Source: a virus. From it: DNA of 64,000 nt. The stretch is taken from positions 1 to 64,000 of IMG/VR virus record IMGVR_UViG_3300025121_000002, one strand, 5' to 3'. Position 1 is the first letter of the stretch. Each line of letters starts with the position of its first letter. The translations under genes and the position numbers were made by a program. Positions 3,049-64,000 of the stretch are shown piece after piece. The notes under the pieces were generated by a model, which was not told the DNA's origin, did not search any database, and saw only the letters and a program-made list of their open reading frames with translations.

Positions 3049-3984
3049 ATGACACAATATGAAAAAGATTTAGCTGCTGTTAAAGAAAATGGTAGAGCTT
3101 TGAAATATATTGAACATCAAACACCAGAATTATGTTTAACTGCTGTTAATCAAAATGGTTATGCTTTGAAATATGTTGAATATCAAACAGAAGAAATATG
3201 TTTAGCCGCTGTTAAGGAAAATAGTTATGCTTTGAAATATGTTAAACATCAGACTCCAGAACTTTGTATGATTGCTGTTAAAGAAGACGGTCTTACTTTA
3301 TGTTTTGTTAAACAACAAACAGAAGAAATATGTTTAGCTGCTGTTAAACAGAATGGTTATGCTTTGGACTATGTTAAACATCAGACAGAAGAAATATACT
3401 TAGCCGCTGTTAAGCAAAATGGTTATGCTTTACAATTGGTTAAACAACAAACTGATGAAATATGTTTAGCTGCTGTTAATCAATATGGTTATGCTTTACA
3501 ATTGGTTAAACAACAAACTGATGAAATATGTTTAGCTGCTGTTAAACAAAATGGTTATGCTTTGAAATATGTTAAACATCAGACTCCAGAACTTTGTATG
3601 ATTGCTGTTAAAGAAGACGGTCTTACTTTATGTTTTGTTAAACAACAAACAGAAGAAATATATTTAGCTGCTGTTAAAGAGAATGGTATGGCTTTACAAT
3701 TTGTTAAACATCAAACAGAAGAAATATGTTTAGCTGCTGTTAAACAAGACGGTTATGCTTTGAAATATGTTAAACATCAAACAGAAGAAATTTGTTTAGC
3801 TGCTGTTAAACAAGACGGTTATGCTTTGGAATATGTTAAACATCAAACTGATGAAATATGTTTAGCTGCTGTTAATCAATATGGTAATGCTTTGAAATAT
3901 GTTAAACCAGAGATTAAAACGGAAGAATTTTTATTACGATGTTTAGAAACTAATATAGCTTGTATAAAATATATGGAGATATAG
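3049..3984 (+). CDS. DUF4116-like tandem-repeat protein, paralog 3 (about 13 repeats)
   Basis: Same N-terminus, repeat unit and tail as the other paralogs. Internal identical block of about 107 bp at 3224-3331 and 3554-3661 (offset 330 = 5 x 66 nt). Confidence 0.85.
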   Translation: MTQYEKDLAAVKENGRALKYIEHQTPELCLTAVNQNGYALKYVEYQTEEICLAAVKENSYALKYVKHQTPELCMIAVKEDGLTLCFVKQQTEEICLAAVKQNGYALDYVKHQTEEIYLAAVKQNGYALQLVKQQTDEICLAAVNQYGYALQLVKQQTDEICLAAVKQNGYALKYVKHQTPELCMIAVKEDGLTLCFVKQQTEEIYLAAVKENGMALQFVKHQTEEICLAAVKQDGYALKYVKHQTEEICLAAVKQDGYALEYVKHQTDEICLAAVNQYGNALKYVKPEIKTEEFLLRCLETNIACIKYMEI

Positions 3985-3985
3985 T

Positions 3986-4303
3986 ATGCGTTATATTATA
4001 GTTTTTATTATATTTATAATACTAATATCATTAGATACATCACAATCTAATTTAAAAAATCAATCTTGTTATCTAGGTTATGTTGTTAAACTAGAAAAAC
4101 AAGAAAAGAAGTATATACTAAATATAAAACTTAATAACGAAATCCAAGTATTAACCATTAATGAAAATAGTGATGTAAAATTCATTGATTTATTACAAAA
4201 TGTTACAGGTAAAAATGTTTTAATTGGTATAAAATATATGTATACTAATAATGAATATAGTGATAAACTTGAAAATGTTAAAATAATAAGGAGCAAGATA
4301 TGA
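3986..4303 (+). CDS. hypothetical protein with N-terminal signal/TM segment
   Basis: ATG 2 nt after the upstream stop. Hydrophobic N-terminus YIIVFIIFIILISL. Confidence 0.55.
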   Translation: MRYIIVFIIFIILISLDTSQSNLKNQSCYLGYVVKLEKQEKKYILNIKLNNEIQVLTINENSDVKFIDLLQNVTGKNVLIGIKYMYTNNEYSDKLENVKIIRSKI

Positions 4304-4866
4304 GAAACTTTCCATTAGAAAAGGATAAAATAGATAAAAACCAAATATGGACTATTAGTTCAAATGGAACACCAATGTATGTTTGTATTGGTAATGTTGA
4401 TTCGTTTAATCTTTTATATAACTTACCTCAAAATCTTTTAGATGAACTACTAGAATATGGTTGGTGTAATCAATATAATAGATTTCATTTTGAAACGTAT
4501 AACTTTAAATTAAATGATACAATAAAAGATACTAATACAAATACCCAATATGAAATATCCGATGTTACTATGAACATATGTAATAATATATTTGTTGCTA
4601 AATTATGGGATATAGACAATTTTAAGAGTATAGAAATGTCTTTAGGTGATTTAGAATATAATATAAGTAGTCAAGAATATGAAATTATAGAAAAGGAAGA
4701 AGATTTAGTATCTAAAGAAATTGATGATTTTTTTTCTGGTGTTGATGAAAAAAAGGAATTACCTTGTTCTATATATAATAAAGATTGTGAGATAGTAACT
4801 TCATATATGCCTGTATCTGGTAAATCCTTTAAAATGTGTAGAACCCATAAGAAGGAGGTATTTTAA
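4300..4866 (+). CDS. hypothetical protein
   Basis: ATGA overlap with the upstream gene, GGAG upstream, co-oriented array. Confidence 0.55.
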   Translation: MRNFPLEKDKIDKNQIWTISSNGTPMYVCIGNVDSFNLLYNLPQNLLDELLEYGWCNQYNRFHFETYNFKLNDTIKDTNTNTQYEISDVTMNICNNIFVAKLWDIDNFKSIEMSLGDLEYNISSQEYEIIEKEEDLVSKEIDDFFSGVDEKKELPCSIYNKDCEIVTSYMPVSGKSFKMCRTHKKEVF

Positions 4867-52089: not shown

Positions 52090-52128
52090 AAAAAAAAGGG
52101 AGAGCAGAACGCCCCCCCCCCCCCCCCC
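52090..52128 (-). terminator. capsid-gene terminator whose 5' arm is a G17 homopolymer
   Basis: Minus sense: G17 (52128-52112), CGTTCTG, CTCTCCC, T8. G-run/CTCTCCC pairing needs two G.U pairs. Confidence 0.55.
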
Positions 52129-52155: not shown

Positions 52156-53244
52156 TTAGTTAACGATACCAGTGAATACGATATTGCGTCCTAAAGCATT
52201 ACAGAAAATTGCTAAGTCACAATAAGTACGATATTCAATACCGTTTTGATTTTCAAGAACAATTAACATTTCTTCATTTTTTCCTGGAAGATTGAAAGTA
52301 ATATCAGAAGATCCAACTCTTTCAAAAGATTCAAGGTCAAGTCCGAAAGCTATTCCTTCTTTAACATAAGTACAGCTAATGATTTCAATCAAACCATTTT
52401 GGCTATGAAATACGATAGTTTGTGAACCATTCTCATATTTCTTGACATCATAAGACTCATCAAATAGTCTTTTTGCTGTTTGTTCATTTAACAAATCAGA
52501 CCATGTTTTAGGATTAACGAAAAGAGAAATCTTTCCTTCAAGTCCTTTAGCTACTGCATCAGCAATACCATCAGAAATTTTTTCGAATGATAAAGCTCCA
52601 CCTACTGGATAAACGTTACCTGTCCATAAGCTGTAATCAGTAGAAACACCAAAAATGTTACCAGTAGTAGTTGTTAACATTTTATAGATACCCATAAATT
52701 CGTTACCCTTAGCACCATGCTCATAAATAACTAGTTCATCACCAGCTAATTTAGAAGCTTTCAAAGTAGCTAAGTTATCACCTACAGCAGAAGCCATATC
52801 AACATAAAGTCTTTTGTTTCTGATATCAACTTTAGTAATTTTGATAATAGTAGTGTTCATTGCTGAATCAGTTAGATTATAAATATCTAACTTCATTTTC
52901 TCACCACCAACCCAAATTCCAGGTGCCCATTCAGCTACTGTAATATCAAAATAAGCAGAAGCATCATCAACAACACTTATAGTAGCCAATCCAGATTGAC
53001 CATAGAAACATTGGTATTCATGCTTCTTATAAGTTGAATTTAAAAGGTTACGAACAACATGTTTTGTTGCTTTACCGTAAGCAGCAGCATCATTAATGGA
53101 ACGTGAAATAGCTGCGAATGATAATTGGGCTTTCAATATCATTTCACAACCTTTTACTGTTGCTTCTTTAGTAGCTCCTGAAATTGCATCTTTTAAAGTT
53201 ACAATTTCTCCAGAATCACCGTTGTAAGAAACTCCGTGCTCTAA
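52156..53244 (-). CDS. major capsid protein, exon 2
   Basis: 362 codons starting LEHGVSYNG... The ATG used by the ORF track (53247-53245) is the last 3 nt of the intron. Lies between the scaffold and fibre genes and is followed by a terminator. Confidence 0.7.
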   Translation of the reverse strand, partial: LEHGVSYNGDSGEIVTLKDAISGATKEATVKGCEMILKAQLSFAAISRSINDAAAYGKATKHVVRNLLNSTYKKHEYQCFYGQSGLATISVVDDASAYFDITVAEWAPGIWVGGEKMKLDIYNLTDSAMNTTIIKITKVDIRNKRLYVDMASAVGDNLATLKASKLAGDELVIYEHGAKGNEFMGIYKMLTTTTGNIFGVSTDYSLWTGNVYPVGGALSFEKISDGIADAVAKGLEGKISLFVNPKTWSDLLNEQTAKRLFDESYDVKKYENGSQTIVFHSQNGLIEIISCTYVKEGIAFGLDLESFERVGSSDITFNLPGKNEEMLIVLENQNGIEYRTYCDLAIFCNALGRNIVFTGIVN

Positions 53245-54123
53245 CATATTGTTATTACTAGCTTTTGATGCTAGTAAGTTTGAGTAATCAAACTCTCAGT
53301 TTTATCTATTTTATAACTGAGATCAGAAACAACTTGAATTTTATAAAGCATATCAGGATGAATATAATCTTTTATTAAATTAATAAATCTTTCTTTATCT
53401 TCTTTTTTTCCAATTCTAATATAAGGATAAAAATTATGTTCAAGATATACTTTACTATGAATATTAAATTTTTCTAATAATAAATTAGAAAGTTTAATAA
53501 CATCTTCTTTTGGAAATCCACCTAAAGAAAATTTAAAAGCTTTTAGTTTTCCTTTATGACTTTCTTTTGAACCATCGTCCATAAAAAGTATAGCTAAAGA
53601 AATTTCATTAAAATGTTTTAGAACATAATCAGTTATTCTTTTTTTACCATCAACAATCATTCTATAATATAAAGAAGTAAATTTATGATGTACAGTTGTC
53701 CAAAATCTATAAAAATTTTGTCTTTTTCCCGAAGGTGATGTCATAGATTTAGCTAAACACATTTTACTTCCAACACCATATTCTGTTGATATCAAATCTA
53801 ATTTCCATTTACCATAATCTTTTTGTTTCTCACAATGACCAAAAAGTATATGTTTATTTTTTTTTCCAGCAAAAGAAGAATCTCCTAACAATGTCCCTAT
53901 TAAAAACGCTTTTTTATTTTTCTTTAATTCCAACATTCGAACTCCCTATTGGGTTTCTTTTATTTTTTCAAGTTGACTTTCGCATCTTCTTTCGAAGTCC
54001 TTTCGTTAAGTCGTTCAGGCTGGTTTTACCCTTGCCCCTTGTTACCTTTATTATATTATAGAAAGGCTTCCAAGTCAATTAGAAAGGATTTTACTTGGGC
54101 TTAGATTGCACTATCTATTGTTA
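53245..54123 (-). mobile_element. group I intron (879 nt) with embedded LAGLIDADG ORF
   Basis: P1: exon UUGGGU with intron GCCCAA (54095-54100), U.G at the splice site. P10: UCUAA (54101-54105) with exon-2 UUAGA. Terminal G at 53245. 8-bp hairpin UUACUAGC/GCUAGUAA before the 3' splice site. Confidence 0.8.
53271..53936 (-). CDS. LAGLIDADG homing endonuclease (two-motif)
   Basis: LIGTLLGDSS and LAILFMDDGS motifs about 100 aa apart. Located inside the intron. Confidence 0.8.
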   Translation of the reverse strand: MLELKKNKKAFLIGTLLGDSSFAGKKNKHILFGHCEKQKDYGKWKLDLISTEYGVGSKMCLAKSMTSPSGKRQNFYRFWTTVHHKFTSLYYRMIVDGKKRITDYVLKHFNEISLAILFMDDGSKESHKGKLKAFKFSLGGFPKEDVIKLSNLLLEKFNIHSKVYLEHNFYPYIRIGKKEDKERFINLIKDYIHPDMLYKIQVVSDLSYKIDKTESLITQTY

Positions 54124-54291
54124 ACCCAAATTAATCGTATTCTTGTATTCCAATCCCATTCTTTTATTAGGTGATACGAAAGGTATCATCTTAGAAATCT
54201 TAACACCTTCTGGTATTAAATCAGTTAATTCGCCATAAATGGATTTATGAAAACCATTTAGAGCTGCCATATCATTATGATTATAAGACAT
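54124..54291 (-). CDS. major capsid protein, exon 1 (56 codons)
   Basis: AAGGAG RBS 7 nt before the ATG at 54291. MSYNHNDMAALNGFHKSIYGELTDLIPEGVKISKMIPFVSPNKRMGLEYKNTINLG. An unspliced reading hits TAA immediately after the splice site. Confidence 0.75.
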
Positions 54292-54321
54292 ATAGAAACT
54301 CCTTAATTTATTTAAAAAATA

Positions 54322-54522: not shown

Positions 54523-55473
54523 TTATATTTTACTCCAAAAATCTTTTTGTTCTATCGTTTTAAATTTTCGGTCAATAACTTCTTTATTTGGTTTACTTCC
54601 AGTATCCTTTATACTATTACTAGTTGGTGGTGCTTCTTTTTTAACTGGTTCAGCTTTCTTTCTTTTCTTTATTATTTGTCCAACTTTATCTTCACCCAAC
54701 AATTTTTCAATAACTTCTAAAGGCATTACACTAGCTATCGATTTGATTTCATTTAGTATTTGATCTTTAACCAAAGGAACGATATCATTAAAACTAACAT
54801 CAATATTATTCTTCAATGCTATTCTCATATATCCAGTCATTCTATTAATAATCTCAGGATTCATTGGTAATTGATTCTTTTCAATAGCAGCCATCAAATC
54901 TCTTTGATATTCAGCAGCATATCTATCTTGTAGTGCTTTCATTTCAATTTCTTCAGCACGTTTTTTAGCTTTCTGTTCTTCTTCTTCCTTTTGTCTAAGC
55001 TTTTCTTGAAGTTCCATTAACTCTCTATCTTTTGGATCTAGTTGAGCTTTCTCTAATTTGTCATTCATTATCTTTTCAGAAAGTCCATCAATATCAATAC
55101 CCATTTTACGTAAAGCATTAGCTGTATCTTTTTGTAAATAGTTAAAGAAGTCTTGTAAATCCTTTTGTACCTTAGCATCTTTCTTTTCTAGTTCAGCAGC
55201 TTTTTGTGCTCTTTTCTGTGACATTTCAGCAAGTTGAACCATTCTAATTAGTTCTTCTTCGTTAGCTAAGTCAATTTGTTTTTCAATTTCTTTACCATCA
55301 ACTTTAATGTTTAACTTTTTTAAAGTTGACTTAACTGCGTCTTTCATTTCAGGACTAGCTTCTGCTGGTTGTTCTGGTGCAGCTTCAACATTACCTTCTT
55401 CTGGTTGTACAACAGCTTCTACATTTTCTGCTGGTGCTTCTTGTGATGGTTGTTCTTGTGTTACTTCAGCCAT
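54523..55473 (-). CDS. scaffolding protein
   Basis: A/E/K/Q-rich helical protein between portal and capsid. ATG 55473 has an AAGGA RBS; the track start 55494 has none. Confidence 0.5.
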   Translation of the reverse strand: MAEVTQEQPSQEAPAENVEAVVQPEEGNVEAAPEQPAEASPEMKDAVKSTLKKLNIKVDGKEIEKQIDLANEEELIRMVQLAEMSQKRAQKAAELEKKDAKVQKDLQDFFNYLQKDTANALRKMGIDIDGLSEKIMNDKLEKAQLDPKDRELMELQEKLRQKEEEEQKAKKRAEEIEMKALQDRYAAEYQRDLMAAIEKNQLPMNPEIINRMTGYMRIALKNNIDVSFNDIVPLVKDQILNEIKSIASVMPLEVIEKLLGEDKVGQIIKKRKKAEPVKKEAPPTSNSIKDTGSKPNKEVIDRKFKTIEQKDFWSKI

Positions 55474-55581
55474 AAATTTTCCTTTGTTTACCATCCATAT
55501 AGGATAGGTGTATTATTTTCTCCATCGATAGTGATAGGAGAATGACGAGTAAATCTTTCGAAAAACTCGTCAAAATGTATA

Positions 55582-57633
55582 CTAACTATTTGATATATTT
55601 GTCATTCCTTCATTTGCTGTTAATGGTGCATTTTCAAAACCTTCAGGCATTCTTGGCTTTTGTAATGTTGTATCTTGTTGATTCAATGCCTGTTCTACTG
55701 GTGGTAGATTTTGGGGTGCTTCCATTTGTGATGGTGATGTTGTCTGTCCTGGATTTGGTTGGGTTATTGGTTGAACTATCGGTTGAATACCCATAGCTTG
55801 TAACAACATAGGATCTGTATTTTTCCAAGTTTGAATATGTTCATTGATATGAGTTAATACTAGATTAACTAACTCAGCATCAGATTTTAATATAGTATCA
55901 TTCAATACACCTCTATGACATTGAATATGTTTGGGGTGATTTTCTATAGCTAATACAATAGGTTTTGTTCCCATTAAGAAACCTTCGTTTTCACCACGTA
56001 TTAAAAATTCCTCTTTTACAATATCTTCTGTACCCATTTCTAATTTACCAGTATGTATAATTGTTATGTATTGTTCTGGGGTAAGTGTGCCATATTGAAG
56101 TAAATTATCAGCCATTTGTGCTCTACCAGCAAGTGTATTAGTTAAAGGATTTGCAACATCAACAATAACTCTATTTATAGAACGTAGGTCTTCTCCTTTA
56201 AATTCTTTCATATACGACCTTCCAGATTTACCAACAATAGCCGCAATTCTTGGAGAGTTAGCAAAATCTTGAAGTATTTCAATTAAACAAATACCGACAT
56301 TTTCAATTAAGTAAATATATTCTTGTTGTAAACCCGACATAAATTGTATAGCATTAGTTTGTACCATAGCCAATGCTGATCCAGAACGTAAAGATGCTTC
56401 TGGATTTCCTCTAGCTGTTGAATTTATAGCCGATAGAGTTTCCATATCTTTAACATAACGATCCATTAAATTATACAATTCAGGAGCTGTTTTTGTTAAG
56501 TTTAAAGCTTCAGGTTTAGCACCACCTTGAGGGTTATAATCCATGATACTTAAACCATTAGCTAATTGTGTGACATCAATATTTGATCCACTAGGATTTA
56601 ATATTGTTTGTACACCAAAAGCAACGTTGTTACTTAATGCTGCTGAATTTAAACTATTATGTGCGTCCTGTATTGATAGTAAATCAAATAAAGGACTATA
56701 TCCTAATGGTGTTCCTAGTATTCTTCCTGGATAAATTGGGAATACAGGTATCCTCCTATATGGTAGTTCACCCTCATGGAGTATTGCTTCTTCAGAAACA
56801 AATAACATATATTTACCTTCAGGCATTGCCTCACTACGCCTGTGATAAAACTCTAACACAGATATATCATCAGTTTCATCTCCACTATATAAACCAACAC
56901 GTACTCTTTTCGAATGATCTTTCGATTCTATAGCCATTATTTCTTTTTCTAAATGTGGATACTTAGCGATCAAGTCATATCTATTTTTAAATGATCTAGT
57001 TATAATCCAATCGAAATCTCTACCTTCTTTGGAAAGATCCATAACAACATCTAAAGCTGATAGAACATTAAATTCAACATCACCTTCATACTGTGGATCT
57101 GGTATTTCTACTTTCTCTCCATTTTCTTGTAGTTCTTTGTATTCTTGTATTTCTTTTTTATTAGTTACTTCACCTAACATACCATTCCAAGACATTTTCA
57201 TCCAACCCAAAGATGTAGATAATGCATATTCACATGCCATCTTTAAGTATTCTTCTAGTTTCTTTTCTCTCATATAATAGTCAAGTAGACCATTTCCTAG
57301 ATATGTCTGTGTAACCGATTTAAAGTCTGTATTTACTGCTCTACATTCCATTGCCGGTCTAGTTGATGTTGTCATAGTCAACATATGTCTAGCTATGTTT
57401 CTGAGATGATTAACTACTATCTGAGCTAGTTCTCCATCTTCACCAGCAAACGTAATTTGATGAGCTTCACCTATTGAATTATAGTATCCACCATAATATG
57501 CAGCATATAAATCTCTAAGTTTATCCATGAATCCACAAGAGTTAAGTGATCTATCCCATGATTCAATTTTAGATAACAAAGCTGAAGCACATTCTTTTGA
57601 TTCTCTTGCTGCAAAATATTTATTATTTTCCAT
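55582..57633 (-). CDS. portal protein
   Basis: 683 aa, directly upstream of scaffold and capsid. P/Q-rich C-terminal tail. Assignment by size and synteny. Confidence 0.6.
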   Translation of the reverse strand: MENNKYFAARESKECASALLSKIESWDRSLNSCGFMDKLRDLYAAYYGGYYNSIGEAHQITFAGEDGELAQIVVNHLRNIARHMLTMTTSTRPAMECRAVNTDFKSVTQTYLGNGLLDYYMREKKLEEYLKMACEYALSTSLGWMKMSWNGMLGEVTNKKEIQEYKELQENGEKVEIPDPQYEGDVEFNVLSALDVVMDLSKEGRDFDWIITRSFKNRYDLIAKYPHLEKEIMAIESKDHSKRVRVGLYSGDETDDISVLEFYHRRSEAMPEGKYMLFVSEEAILHEGELPYRRIPVFPIYPGRILGTPLGYSPLFDLLSIQDAHNSLNSAALSNNVAFGVQTILNPSGSNIDVTQLANGLSIMDYNPQGGAKPEALNLTKTAPELYNLMDRYVKDMETLSAINSTARGNPEASLRSGSALAMVQTNAIQFMSGLQQEYIYLIENVGICLIEILQDFANSPRIAAIVGKSGRSYMKEFKGEDLRSINRVIVDVANPLTNTLAGRAQMADNLLQYGTLTPEQYITIIHTGKLEMGTEDIVKEEFLIRGENEGFLMGTKPIVLAIENHPKHIQCHRGVLNDTILKSDAELVNLVLTHINEHIQTWKNTDPMLLQAMGIQPIVQPITQPNPGQTTSPSQMEAPQNLPPVEQALNQQDTTLQKPRMPEGFENAPLTANEGMTNISNS

Positions 57634-62337: not shown

Positions 62338-64000
62338 TCATCTACGACGCTTAACTGTGAAAATGTCACGAATACTCTGTTGAACGTCCGTAAGTTGTTG
62401 TTTTTGTTTAGGAGAGTAGAATCCACCTTTAGGTAAATCGTAATCTTTAGGGTATGGATTTTTATGATAGTTGATGTTACGTATCAAATAAATCAATGCA
62501 TCTAAACAGTCAAAATGTGAACCATCAGCAGCTTTCTCATATTTAGTTCTTGCTTTATTCCAAGTAGCATTCATTAAATGAAATATTAGGTTTATACATC
62601 TAGGATTTATCTTTAGTTTTTTACCAGAAACTTTCATACGTAAAGCGTTTATTTGTGCGTTTTTATCATCTTTTCTAGTTGGTATAAACGATAAGTTGTG
62701 TAAGTTATTAAAGTCTACGATAATTTGCCAACTAGTATCACATATCCTTGACTCTGGTAATTTGTCACCCCAAAGCATCTTTTCCTTTAATTTAATAGCA
62801 TCAGCCATATCAATAGTTGTATATTCTTTACCATTGAATACTAATTCATCTTCAACAACAATTTCATCATTTCTAAAATCATAATACGCAAACAAAAAAG
62901 CTGTCCAATCTAGTATACCAAAGTCACCAGAAGTATAACATGTATAGTGTGCTGGTCGTTTCCATGTTTGTATTATGTCTTTCATTTTTTCATCAGTAGC
63001 TTCTGGTATAACTAATGAATTTGTGTCAGCTAATAATTTACATAAGTATTCTCTTTTAAAATCTATAGAATCTTTACCACCAACAGCATTAGCCATTTCT
63101 TCTATTTCATATCCTTTAAATCTAGGACAATCATATATAGTTCTTCTGGTATATGCTTTTTTATAGTCAGCTTCTTTAATATATTTATTAAATGTATGTG
63201 CTGCTGAAGATGGTGGAGTTGAAATCATGATTGTTAATCTACGCTTAGACGTATTCATAGTTGGAAATAATACAGATTTATAATAGTAGTCAAATTCAGA
63301 TGAATCCATAAATCCACACTCATCCATGAATACCCTATCAAATCTTTGACCTCTAGCATTTTCAATATTACCAGAGTCTGTACCAATACAATGAATTTCA
63401 GAACCATTATCAAATACGAATACGTTTTCTTGAGTATTAAATTTAGGTCTTAATTCTTTAGGACAATCTATACATATTTCATTGAAACGAGATTTAATTA
63501 ATTTTCTAGCTTGATTCTGTCTAGGTAAAACGTAAGCTATTTTAAAGTTGGGATTACGAATACATTCTTCGATTGCTAATAAAGAAATTAGGAAAGAGTT
63601 ATGAGTTACCAATCCATCACCAGTAAGATATAAATGTGTATCATTATCAACAGTAATATCCCAACATTGTTCCATTCTTCTATTTTCTTTTCTAACACTA
63701 ACAGAATCTGTCACACCATTTACAACAGTTACTATTTTATCATACTCATTAAAATCTTTTAGTGGTTTCTCCAAAAGATTACCTTCACCATTTTTAACTA
63801 ACCAGTAATGTTCATCAGTACAACCAGCTAAAACTTTACCATTACCAACTAAATCAAATACTTCTTCAACACCACAATCTATTTTATCAACAACTTTAGT
63901 TGGACTTACACTACCGTCTTTATTATATCCATAAATAATATCACCAATATTAATATCTTTGATTAACTTTGGTCCAGTTTCTGTGATGACGTAAGTACTT
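62338..64000 (-). CDS. terL: terminase large subunit (5' end outside window) containing an intein
   Basis: Frame is open to the window edge; the track's start at 63774 is an internal TTG. C-extein has Walker B VFMDECGF and a C-terminal nuclease-like domain (SGDFGILDWTAF..). Confidence 0.75.
   Translation of the reverse strand, partial: STYVITETGPKLIKDINIGDIIYGYNKDGSVSPTKVVDKIDCGVEEVFDLVGNGKVLAGCTDEHYWLVKNGEGNLLEKPLKDFNEYDKIVTVVNGVTDSVSVRKENRRMEQCWDITVDNDTHLYLTGDGLVTHNSFLISLLAIEECIRNPNFKIAYVLPRQNQARKLIKSRFNEICIDCPKELRPKFNTQENVFVFDNGSEIHCIGTDSGNIENARGQRFDRVFMDECGFMDSSEFDYYYKSVLFPTMNTSKRRLTIMISTPPSSAAHTFNKYIKEADYKKAYTRRTIYDCPRFKGYEIEEMANAVGGKDSIDFKREYLCKLLADTNSLVIPEATDEKMKDIIQTWKRPAHYTCYTSGDFGILDWTAFLFAYYDFRNDEIVVEDELVFNGKEYTTIDMADAIKLKEKMLWGDKLPESRICDTSWQIIVDFNNLHNLSFIPTRKDDKNAQINALRMKVSGKKLKINPRCINLIFHLMNATWNKARTKYEKAADGSHFDCLDALIYLIRNINYHKNPYPKDYDLPKGGFYSPKQKQQLTDVQQSIRDIFTVKRRR
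63598..64000 (-). mobile_element. mini-intein (Hint domain) within terL, N-terminal junction outside window
   Basis: VITETGPKLIKDINIGDIIYG, GCTDEHYW (TxxH), CWDITVDNDTHLYL, GDGLVTHN followed by Ser (63597-63595). Confidence 0.75.

What the first reader, a model, noticed from the sequence alone, without database searches (positions are those of the whole stretch)
52156..54291. Major capsid gene interrupted by a group I intron carrying a LAGLIDADG homing endonuclease
ORF 52156..53247 looks like a capsid protein lacking its N-terminus. About 1 kb upstream on the same strand a 56-codon ORF with a perfect AAGGAG RBS (ATG 54291, MSYNHND...EYKNTINLG) runs straight into a stop. Between them lies a two-motif LAGLIDADG ORF (LIGTLLGDSS / LAILFMDDGS), flanked by about 190 nt and 25 nt of non-coding RNA.

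In RNA sense the junction reads ...AAUUUGGGU|UAACAAUAGAUAGUGCAAUCUAAGCCCAAGU.... The canonical group I elements can be read directly:
- P1: intron GCCCAA (54095-54100) pairs with the exon-1 end UUGGGU, including the terminal U.G wobble.
- P10: the adjacent UCUAA (54101-54105) pairs with the first five nt of exon 2, UUAGA.
- Omega-G: the intron ends in G at 53245, which is the G of the ATG the ORF caller took as a start.
- P9-like: an 8-bp hairpin UUACUAGC/GCUAGUAA sits just before the 3' splice site.

This is the canonical internal-guide-sequence architecture. Splicing there gives an in-frame ...NTINLG-LEHGVSYNG... protein of 418 aa. The phage's most abundant structural protein would then depend on RNA splicing.
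Basis: partly seen in the sequence, partly recalled or inferred. Interest (0 to 1): 0.85.

Follow-up and report, generated by a model that had tools for sequence, protein, structure and literature searches.

The report
Capsid gene split by mobile intron
This phage's major capsid protein gene is interrupted by an 879-nt group I intron that carries an I-SceI-like LAGLIDADG homing endonuclease gene; the call is well supported, but this kind of element is already known in other phages.

Summary
On the minus strand, a 56-codon exon 1 (54291-54124) and a 362-codon exon 2 (53244-52156) flank an 879-nt insert (54123-53245). Hundreds of uninterrupted homologs (405-420 aa) align across the proposed junction without a gap. 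The spliced protein models confidently as an HK97-fold capsid protein and lies downstream of a P22-type portal gene.

The reason is that the intron belongs to a compact family without a P2 helix that RF00028 misses. Its 17-nt core has more than 117 exact matches in viral contigs. A covariance model built from 52 ORF-less members, without the window, scores the window at 111 bits (E about 1e-21). The group I core topology, including the P3/P7 pseudoknot, shows very strong covariation.

The endonuclease gene sits in its own stem between P7 and P9. Relatives carry the same intron at the same site without an ORF, or with an HNH gene in the P6 loop. Capsid-gene group I introns are already documented (Tuc2009, LittleE), so this is a new member of a known kind. 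Splicing itself is inferred, not shown.

The parts
54299..54304 (-). Ribosome-binding site AAGGAG of capsid exon 1
   Evidence: Read directly from the sequence. It lies 7 nt upstream of the ATG at 54291.
54124..54291 (-). Capsid gene exon 1: 56 codons, MSYNHND...NTINLG, encoding the N-arm and the first E-loop strand
   Evidence: ORF. It aligns to the N-termini of uninterrupted 405-420 aa homologs. In the model, residues 1-56 form N-terminal helices plus strand 48-54.
53245..54123 (-). Group I intron, 879 nt, starting UAACAAUAG... and ending ...AUAACAAUAUG (omega-G at 53245)
   Evidence: The boundaries follow from the gapless protein alignment across LG|LEHG, U at -1 and G at the intron's 3' end, and 37 stop codons in the exon-1 frame. 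L003 and L128 have an intron at the identical site.
54095..54129 (-). P1: exon UUGGGU (54129-54124) paired with the internal guide GCCCAA (54100-54095), U.G at the splice site, 23-nt loop
   Evidence: Across the family, 98 of 108 members have a 6-bp guide partner upstream (14 of 108 after shuffling), and 95 have the U.G pair.
54101..54105 (-). P10 guide segment UCUAA, complementary to the first 5 nt of exon 2 (UUAGA, 53244-53240)
   Evidence: The same pairing is present in L003 and L128.
53972..54095 (-). Catalytic core P3-P8: P3 54088-54082/54004-53998; P4 54074-54071/54041-54038; P5 54066-54062/54049-54045; P6 54037-54034/54020-54017; P7 54012-54008/53979-53975 (pseudoknot with P3); P8 53997-53994/53989-53986. 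It includes the invariant 17-mer UAAUUGACUUGGAAGCC at 54081-54065.
   Evidence: Covariance model R1 (built without the window) gives 111.4 bits, E=1.2e-21, a full-length match with no non-standard pairs. Family covariation: 98% of cells paired, 20 of 29 pairs changed on both sides. Coordinates.
53331..53974 (-). Endonuclease cassette in an extra stem between P7 and P9, closed by AACUUGAA (53974-53967) / UUCAAGUU (53338-53331)
   Evidence: 8-bp stem verified and recovered in the MFE fold. This insertion is absent from the ORF-less L128 intron and from L006, where AGUC is followed directly by UGA and P9.
53271..53936 (-). I-SceI-like two-motif LAGLIDADG homing endonuclease ORF, 221 aa, with its own Shine-Dalgarno GGGAG at 53946-53942. 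Residues 201-221 are read-through into intron helices.
   Evidence: Pfam LAGLIDADG_2 E=2e-28. PDB 6x1j E=9.5e-16 and I-SceI 1r7m E=7e-8, aligned over residues 4-200. Motifs are LIGTLLGDSS and LAILFMDDGS.
53255..53321 (-). 3' peripheral hairpins: P9 (53321-53315/53301-53295), P9.1 (53294-53289/53282-53277), P9.2 (53277-53270/53262-53255)
   Evidence: Pairings verified and recovered by the MFE fold. Hairpins at the same positions, with different sequences, occur in L003, L006 and L128.
52156..53244 (-). Capsid gene exon 2: 362 codons plus stop, LEHGVSYNG...FTGIVN
   Evidence: The ATG at 53247 that an ORF caller takes as the start has no ribosome-binding site and is the last three bases of the intron.

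Best explanation
The phage's HK97-fold major capsid protein gene is interrupted, between codons 56 and 57, by a mobile group I intron.

After transcription, the intron RNA folds into the standard group I architecture. P1 pairs the exon-1 end with an internal guide sequence and has a U.G pair at the splice site. The core is the P3-P4-P5-P6 / P7-P3'-P8 arrangement with a P3/P7 pseudoknot. Three hairpins (P9, P9.1, P9.2) follow, and P10 pairs with exon 2. The inferred steps are that a free guanosine attacks after U54124, and the freed exon-1 3'-OH then attacks after the terminal G53245. This ligates the exons into an mRNA for a 418-aa capsid protein.

An I-SceI-like LAGLIDADG endonuclease gene sits in an extra stem between P7 and P9 and has its own ribosome-binding site. 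Its inferred role is to cut intron-less capsid alleles in co-infecting relatives, so that the intron is copied in by repair (homing).

What is shown: the split gene, the RNA family and its structure, and the identities of both proteins. What is inferred: splicing, endonuclease activity and homing.
For: - Split gene: 718 homologs, most covering 99-100% of the spliced protein, contiguous across ...LG|LEHG....
- Capsid identity: model pLDDT 87.5 and pTM 0.87. The top 50 PDB matches are all HK97-fold capsid proteins or encapsulins. Terminase, portal and a scaffold-like gene lie upstream.
- Not translated through: 37 stops in the exon-1 frame, and the endonuclease ORF is in another frame.
- Intron family: the 17-nt core has more than 117 exact matches in viral contigs.
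- Structure: 52 ORF-less cores give 98% paired cells, against 37-48% when partners are slid. 20 of 29 pairs change on both sides. All 7 P3 pairs covary, and so does P7.
- Independent model: 111.4 bits, E=1.2e-21 on the window.
- P1 with U.G is present in 95 of 108 members.
- All window helices are verified at exact coordinates. The MFE fold has z=-5.25.
- The same intron sits at the same site without an ORF in L128 (118.2 bits), and with an HNH/NUMOD3 ORF in the P6 loop in L003.
- Other group I introns detected by Rfam sit 12 nt downstream and about 28 nt upstream in homologous genes.
- Endonuclease: Pfam E=2e-28; PDB I-SceI family E=1e-15 to 7e-8.
- Precedent: Tuc2009 and LittleE.
Against: - There is no RNA or protein data, so splicing is inferred.
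- Rfam RF00028 gives no hit even at E<=1 on the region, or at gathering threshold on the whole window.
- The intron lacks P2.
- The endonuclease cassette lies directly after P7. It replaces the family's consensus UGA after AGUC with AAC and leaves 5 extra nucleotides (GUUUC) before the UGA reappears. This could reduce splicing efficiency or make it depend on a protein factor.
- No intron-less allele of this same phage was found. The nearest uninterrupted homolog is 65% identical.
Confidence: 0.92

Rival explanations
1. The gene is fissioned by a free-standing endonuclease gene. The capsid is made as two separate polypeptides (56 aa and 363 aa) that assemble without RNA splicing, as in some phage genes split by endonuclease insertions.
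For: Both pieces are ORFs with a start codon. The ATG at 53247 could in principle initiate translation.
Against: The ATG at 53247 has no ribosome-binding site (AAUAACAAU precedes it). The insert contains a complete, covarying group I core. An ORF-less 213-nt version occupies the same site in L128, where there is no endonuclease gene to account for a split.
Confidence: 0.03
2. The intron is degenerate and the capsid gene is a pseudogene. The core is recognisable, but the cassette insertion next to P7 has destroyed splicing, so this genome is defective.
For: The cassette sits directly after P7 and alters the J7/9 junction. There is no expression data.
Against: The identical split protein is found on 22 contigs up to 85 kb, which suggests a circulating phage. 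Every core pair is a standard pair. The endonuclease ORF and both exons are intact. Other family members carry a sense-strand LAGLIDADG ORF downstream of an intact core.
Confidence: 0.04
3. The insert is an intein or a group II intron rather than a group I intron.
For: LAGLIDADG domains also occur in inteins.
Against: Intein: a stop codon follows exon 1 immediately, there are 37 stops in frame, and the endonuclease ORF is in a different frame with its own ribosome-binding site. Group II: the ORF-less form is only 213 nt, and there is no reverse transcriptase. The topology is the group I P3/P7 pseudoknot with a U.G pair at the 5' splice site.
Confidence: 0.01

Closest known systems
Group I intron in the major head protein gene of lactococcal phage Tuc2009 (orf37 / HNH orf38 / orf39)
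   Same: The layout is nearly identical: a 55-aa capsid exon 1, an intron-borne homing endonuclease gene, then the large exon 2, directly downstream of the scaffold gene. The 5' core has the same order (AAA-P3-UAAUUG-P4-GAA-P5...), and my model hits it weakly at the correct position (13.3 bits).
   Different: It is a different intron lineage: Rfam partly recognises it (43.2 and 26.9 bits) but does not recognise the window's. Its endonuclease is HNH, not LAGLIDADG. The capsid proteins are not detectably related by sequence.
Capsid-gene intron of mycobacteriophage LittleE (Cluster J)
   Same: A capsid gene split by an ~820-nt intron carrying a homing endonuclease gene, with U at the exon-1 end and G at the intron end. 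Splicing was shown by RT-PCR and by N-terminal sequencing across the junction (PMC3706429).
   Different: Its endonuclease is HNH and is encoded on the opposite strand. The host has high GC. The authors left the intron type as 'most likely group I'. Here the core is defined by covariation, but splicing is untested.
I-SceI family of two-motif LAGLIDADG homing endonucleases (PDB 1r7m, 6x1j)
   Same: Residues 4-200 align to 6x1j (E=9.5e-16) and to I-SceI (E=7e-8). Both LAGLIDADG motifs, with their acidic residues, and the C-terminal ...MLYKI motif are conserved. Both are encoded inside group I introns.
   Different: From my own knowledge, not tested here, I-SceI is encoded by a mitochondrial rRNA intron. 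This enzyme is in a phage capsid gene and carries a 21-aa tail that is simply read-through into intron helices. Its activity and target are untested.
Rfam RF00028 (Intron_gpI) consensus
   Same: The order and much of the sequence of the joining regions match the consensus printed: P3-AAUUG-P4-(G)AA-P5-UAA-P4'-P6(G.C AA..)-...GACUA(P7)-AAC-P3'-P8-GAAGAU..AGUC(P7').
   Different: The window's family lacks P2, has very short P5, P6 and P8, and scores below reporting thresholds.

Membership tests
Group I intron | P1 helix between the 5' exon end and an internal guide sequence, with a U.G wobble at the splice site | tested here: met
   UUGGGU/GCCCAA with U54124.G54100. The feature is family-wide: 98 of 108 members have a guide partner and 95 have U.G, against 14 of 108 after shuffling.
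Group I intron | Conserved core topology P3-P4-P5-P6-P7-P3'-P8-P7' with a P3/P7 pseudoknot, supported by covariation | tested here: met
   98% of cells paired, against 37-48% when slid. 20 of 29 pairs changed on both sides. P3 covaries at 7 of 7 pairs and P7 at 3 of 5. The window matches the model over its full length at 111.4 bits.
Group I intron | [quoted passage not shown] | tested here: met
   G53245 is the last intron base. UCUAA/UUAGA gives 5 bp. Same in L003 and L128.
Group I intron | Match to the curated Rfam model RF00028 at gathering score | tested here: not met
   No hit at E<=1 or at gathering threshold. ORF-less family members are also missed. RF00028 scores the annotated Tuc2009 capsid intron below its own threshold too, so this reflects the model's sensitivity and is not a defining property of the class.
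Group I intron | Guanosine-dependent self-splicing; G-binding site in P7 | not testable with these tools
   Needs an in vitro transcript plus a GTP assay, or RT-PCR.
Group I intron | Removal restores an uninterrupted host gene | tested here: met
   The spliced 418-aa protein aligns end to end with contiguous homologs and folds as a complete HK97-type capsid protein.
LAGLIDADG homing endonuclease (two-motif, I-SceI-like) | Two LAGLIDADG motifs with conserved acidic residues in one chain, and a family-profile match | tested here: met
   LIGTLLGDSS and LAILFMDDGS. Pfam LAGLIDADG_2, 99.9 bits against a cutoff of 25. PDB 6x1j and I-SceI.
LAGLIDADG homing endonuclease (two-motif, I-SceI-like) | Site-specific cleavage of the intron-less allele | not testable with these tools
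   Needs a cleavage assay on ...AATTTGGGT|TTAGAGCACGG... DNA.
HK97-fold major capsid protein | HK97 fold (N-arm, E-loop, spine helix/P-domain, A-domain) | tested here: met
   Model pLDDT 87.5. Foldseek top hits are the Pa223, SPO1, SU10, A-1(L) and PhiTE capsids, at probability 1.00 and E down to 3e-9. There is no sequence-profile hit in Pfam, PHROGs or PDB.
HK97-fold major capsid protein | Position in the head module (terminase - portal - scaffold - capsid) | tested here: met
   Large terminase at 62338-63774 and portal at 55582-57633. The 323-aa gene rich in charged residues at 54523-55494 is only presumed to be a scaffold protein.
Intein | In-frame insertion translated together with the host protein | tested here: not met
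   TAA directly after exon 1, 37 in-frame stops, and the endonuclease ORF in a different frame.

The most novel reading that the evidence does not exclude
The intron may belong to a widespread, phage-borne, compact subclass of group I introns that current curated models do not detect. The subclass has no P2 or P7.1/7.2 and an invariant UAAUUGACUUGGAAGCC core. The segment of this capsid gene family that encodes the N-arm/E-loop junction may also be a multi-site intron hotspot. Three insertion sites lie within about 40 nt, twin introns can be separated by a 12-nt micro-exon, and unrelated endonucleases have colonised the same RNA scaffold independently (I-SceI-like LAGLIDADG, HNH-NUMOD3). A third type (GIY-YIG) occupies the neighbouring intron. 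These may act as weapons in competition between co-infecting phages.
Probability: 0.35. Interest if true: 0.5.

Novelty: new member of a known kind. Interest (0 to 1): 0.3.

Why it matters
For annotation, gene callers report this phage's capsid protein as a 363-aa N-terminally truncated 'hypothetical protein' (P0001, seen on 22 contigs). At least nine of the top 120 homologs lack the N-terminal segment in the same way, and all seven whose DNA was examined are split by an intron. The correct product is 418 aa.

For method, Rfam's RF00028 misses this whole intron family, which has more than 117 exact core matches in IMG/VR. The model built here, or a curated equivalent, would recover many split phage genes.

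For biology, the locus adds a clear example of modular evolution of introns and their endonuclease genes: one intron scaffold at one site, found empty, with an HNH gene in P6, or with an I-SceI-like gene after P7. It also shows an essential, highly expressed structural gene that depends on RNA splicing. None of this changes current understanding.

Tried and rejected
- Rfam RF00028 on the region (E<=1), on the whole window (gathering), on 19 family loci and on an ORF-less member at E<=10: no group I call in any of them. It was rejected as a decisive test because it also scores the annotated Tuc2009 capsid intron below threshold.
- Pfam, PHROGs and a PDB sequence-profile search on the capsid protein: no hits. 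The identity came from structure prediction instead.
- megablast of the 6-kb region against GenBank phages: no match. blastn of the intron core found one unannotated record.
- A site-specific guide-sequence pattern found nothing in viral contigs. A looser pattern in metagenomes found L128 and L129.
- Intein, group II intron, gene fission and pseudogene readings were considered and rejected or down-weighted (see rival explanations).
- I did not assign a group I subgroup. From memory, the J6/7-P7 signature resembles the Twort-type IA2 ribozyme, but the family lacks the P7.1/P7.2 helices typical of IA, so I leave it unassigned.
- The window's LAGLIDADG enzyme was compared with a double-motif LAGLIDADG ORF from another family member (L124): no significant similarity, so there is no evidence of shared ancestry of that endonuclease gene within the family.
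Full report
**Observation.** On the minus strand the window reads as follows.
- AAGGAG (54304-54299), then ATG at 54291.
- A 56-codon ORF ending ...AAT TTG GGT, followed immediately by TAA.
- 187 nt without an ORF.
- A 221-codon ORF (53936-53271) with the motifs LIGTLLGDSS and LAILFMDDGS.
- 26 nt, ending in ATG at 53247-53245.
- A 362-codon continuation to the stop at 52156.

**One gene split in two.** I searched the proposed 418-aa spliced protein against 5.8 billion proteins and found 718 homologs. Most of the top 120 are 405-420 aa and cover 99-100% of the query. In the alignment they run without a gap across the junction, for example ...VTLG-LEHGVTYGG... in P0003 and P0004. The exon-1 reading frame meets 37 stop codons inside the insert, and the internal ORF is in a different frame with its own GGGAG ribosome-binding site. 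This rules out an intein or read-through. The ATG that gene callers use for 'exon 2' has no ribosome-binding site and is simply the last three bases of the insert.

**It is a capsid gene.** Pfam, PHROGs and a PDB sequence-profile search gave nothing for this protein. An AlphaFold model built with 69 homologs is confident (pLDDT 87.5, pTM 0.87). All top Foldseek hits in the PDB are HK97-fold phage major capsid proteins or encapsulins (Pa223, SPO1, SU10, A-1(L), PhiTE) at probability 1.00. Upstream on the same strand lie a large terminase, a P22/SU10-type portal and a 323-aa gene rich in charged residues that is presumably a scaffold protein. Exon 1 encodes the N-arm and the first E-loop strand, so the exon-2 product alone would lack that whole segment.

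**The insert is a group I intron, although Rfam does not detect it.** RF00028 finds nothing in the region at E<=1, or in the whole window at gathering score. Comparative data resolved this. I fetched DNA for seven of the N-terminally truncated homologs, and it showed the same gene interrupted in relatives.
- L003 has an insert at the identical site, with a similar 5' and 3' RNA sequence, but with an HNH/NUMOD3 ORF in a different loop.
- L006 shares the 3' RNA and also carries an HNH-type ORF.

Comparing these with the window revealed covarying helices.

| Helix | Window | L003 | L006 |
|---|---|---|---|
| P7 | GACUU/AAGUC | GACUG/CAGUC | GACUA/UAGUC |
| P3 | CCUUUC/GAAAGG | CCAAUAC/GUAUUGG | not available |
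| P6 | GGGC/GCCU | GCGG/CCGU | not available |

The shared 17-mer UAAUUGACUUGGAAGCC (J3/4-P4-J4/5-P5) has more than 117 exact matches in IMG/VR viral contigs. The flanks of those matches show one RNA family.

I aligned 52 ORF-less cores, excluding the window and the capsid-gene relatives (L001-L010). On that alignment I counted pairs for the group I topology P3-P4-P5-P6-P7-P3'-P8-P7', with P3 and P7 forming a pseudoknot.
- 98.0% of cells form standard pairs, against 37-48% when the partners are slid by 1-3 columns.
- 20 of 29 pairs change on both sides.
- All 7 P3 pairs covary, as do 5 of 6 P6 pairs, 3 of 5 P7 pairs and all of P8.

A covariance model built from this alignment scores the window at 111.4 bits (E=1.2e-21). 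The match is full-length, every modelled pair is a standard pair, and it is the only hit in 64 kb.

Across 108 distinct family members, 98 have a 6-bp partner for the guide sequence within 51 nt upstream, against 14 of 108 in shuffled controls. 95 of them have the U.G pair at the splice site that is the hallmark of group I introns.

The order and much of the sequence of the joining regions match the RF00028 consensus printed. RF00028 is simply insensitive here. It misses ORF-less members even at E<=10. It also scores the published Tuc2009 capsid intron below its own gathering threshold.

**Anatomy in the window**.

| Element | 5' strand | 3' strand |
|---|---|---|
| P1 | 54129-54124 | 54100-54095 |
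| P10 guide | 54105-54101 | pairs with exon 2, 53244-53240 |
| P3 | 54088-54082 | 54004-53998 |
| P4 | 54074-54071 | 54041-54038 |
| P5 | 54066-54062 | 54049-54045 |
| P6 | 54037-54034 | 54020-54017 |
| P7 | 54012-54008 | 53979-53975 |
| P8 | 53997-53994 | 53989-53986 |
| ORF-closing stem | 53974-53967 | 53338-53331 |
| P9 | 53321-53315 | 53301-53295 |
| P9.1 | 53294-53289 | 53282-53277 |
| P9.2 | 53277-53270 | 53262-53255 |

There is no P2. The intron ends AUAACAAUAUG, with omega-G at 53245. An ORF-deleted precursor folds at -74.1 kcal/mol (z=-5.25, none of 200 shuffles as stable). That MFE structure recovers every helix except the pseudoknotted P7.

**The endonuclease.** The ORF matches Pfam LAGLIDADG_2 (E=2e-28). 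Residues 4-200 align to the I-SceI family in the PDB (6x1j E=9.5e-16; I-SceI 1r7m E=7e-8). The homologous domain ends at ...MLYKI, exactly where the closing stem begins. Residues 201-221 are read-through into P9-P9.2 until the first in-frame stop.

The cassette is an add-on to the intron.
- L128 carries a 213-nt ORF-less version of the same intron at the same site (118.2 bits).
- L003 and L006 carry an HNH/NUMOD3 gene in the P6 loop instead.

Within the wider family, LAGLIDADG genes are the commonest occupants. 14 of the 15 antisense ORFs inside interrupted cores carry a LAGLIDADG motif (regex count), and the two checked with Pfam are LAGLIDADG_1 type. Sense-strand LAGLIDADG ORFs, two-motif in L079, L107 and L124, follow an intact core in L079, L107, L116 and L124. 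The one compared directly (L124) is not significantly similar to the window's enzyme. LAGLIDADG relatives of the window's enzyme occur in only 13 of 50,697 GenBank phage records, mostly crAss-like and Bacillus phages.

**Mechanism.** The RNA family, its structure, the splice-site signatures, the restoration of a complete capsid ORF, and an intact endonuclease ORF are shown. Guanosine-initiated self-splicing after U54124 and at G53245, translation of the 418-aa capsid protein from ligated mRNA, and endonuclease-driven homing into intron-less alleles are inferred. One caution: the cassette abuts P7. The family's UGA after AGUC reappears only after the stem and five extra nucleotides, so efficiency or protein dependence cannot be judged from sequence.

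**Comparison with known cases and novelty.** Group I introns with endonuclease genes in phage capsid genes are established. The Tuc2009 record annotates a 55-aa exon 1, an HNH gene and an exon 2 'linked with orf37 after excision of group I intron'. In mycobacteriophage LittleE, splicing was shown by RT-PCR and protein sequencing (PMC3706429). The window's element is therefore a new member of a known kind. It differs in intron lineage (R1 gives only 13.3 bits on Tuc2009), in endonuclease type and in cassette position.

The less ordinary aspects are contextual: a family that RF00028 does not detect, and a three-site intron hotspot in this capsid family. The sites are about 28 nt upstream (L004, RF00028 82.9 bits), the window's site, and 12 nt downstream (L002, L004, L007-L010, L128).

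**Verdict.** The finding is real and correctly interpreted. Interest is modest.

Noticed in passing
L128 (Ga0213917_1000406), reverse strand about 3410-4480 as printed: A related capsid gene carries twin group I introns separated by a 12-nt micro-exon (TTAGAGCACGGT = LEHG). The first is the ORF-less form of the window's intron. The second is a GIY-YIG-bearing intron whose P1 partner (CACGGU) lies entirely within the micro-exon, which also supplies P10 for the first intron.
   Followed up: partly
L004 3100-4010 and L005: Two tandem group I introns (RF00028 82.9 and 40.2 bits) in the homologous capsid gene, at GF|DYKQ and after LEHG, separated by a 40-nt exon. A 362-aa TnpB/Cas12f1-like ORF sits between the scaffold-like gene and capsid exon 1. 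The called 126-aa 'gene' overlaps intron 1 and is probably spurious.
   Followed up: partly
Viral loci L011-L127: The intron family, with its invariant UAAUUGACUUGGAAGCC core, has more than 117 exact matches in IMG/VR, in many different host genes, and none of the members tested (19 loci plus ORF-less L021) is detected by Rfam RF00028. In members whose core is interrupted in P6, 14 of 15 antisense ORFs are single-motif LAGLIDADG genes encoded on the strand opposite to the intron.
   Followed up: partly
window 52112-52128 (minus strand): A run of 17 G (C on the plus strand) lies about 30 nt downstream of the capsid stop codon, in an otherwise AT-rich genome. It could be a terminator-associated element, a G-quadruplex tract or an assembly artefact.
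   Followed up: no
window 53245-53340 versus L006 640-720: In the window and in L006, unrelated endonuclease ORFs (LAGLIDADG and HNH) both read through the conserved P9-P9.2 RNA in the same frame. This gives similar C-terminal tails (..KIDKTESLITQTY versus ..KVDKTESLAEMTKLTR) that reflect RNA conservation, not protein homology.
   Followed up: no
P0001: The exon-2 product is deposited as a hypothetical protein of a 'Patescibacteria group bacterium' MAG and occurs on 22 contigs up to 85 kb. The phage may therefore be binned with, or infect, a candidate-phyla-radiation bacterium. The only GenBank phage relative of the capsid protein is a Silvanigrella phage at 27% identity.
   Followed up: no
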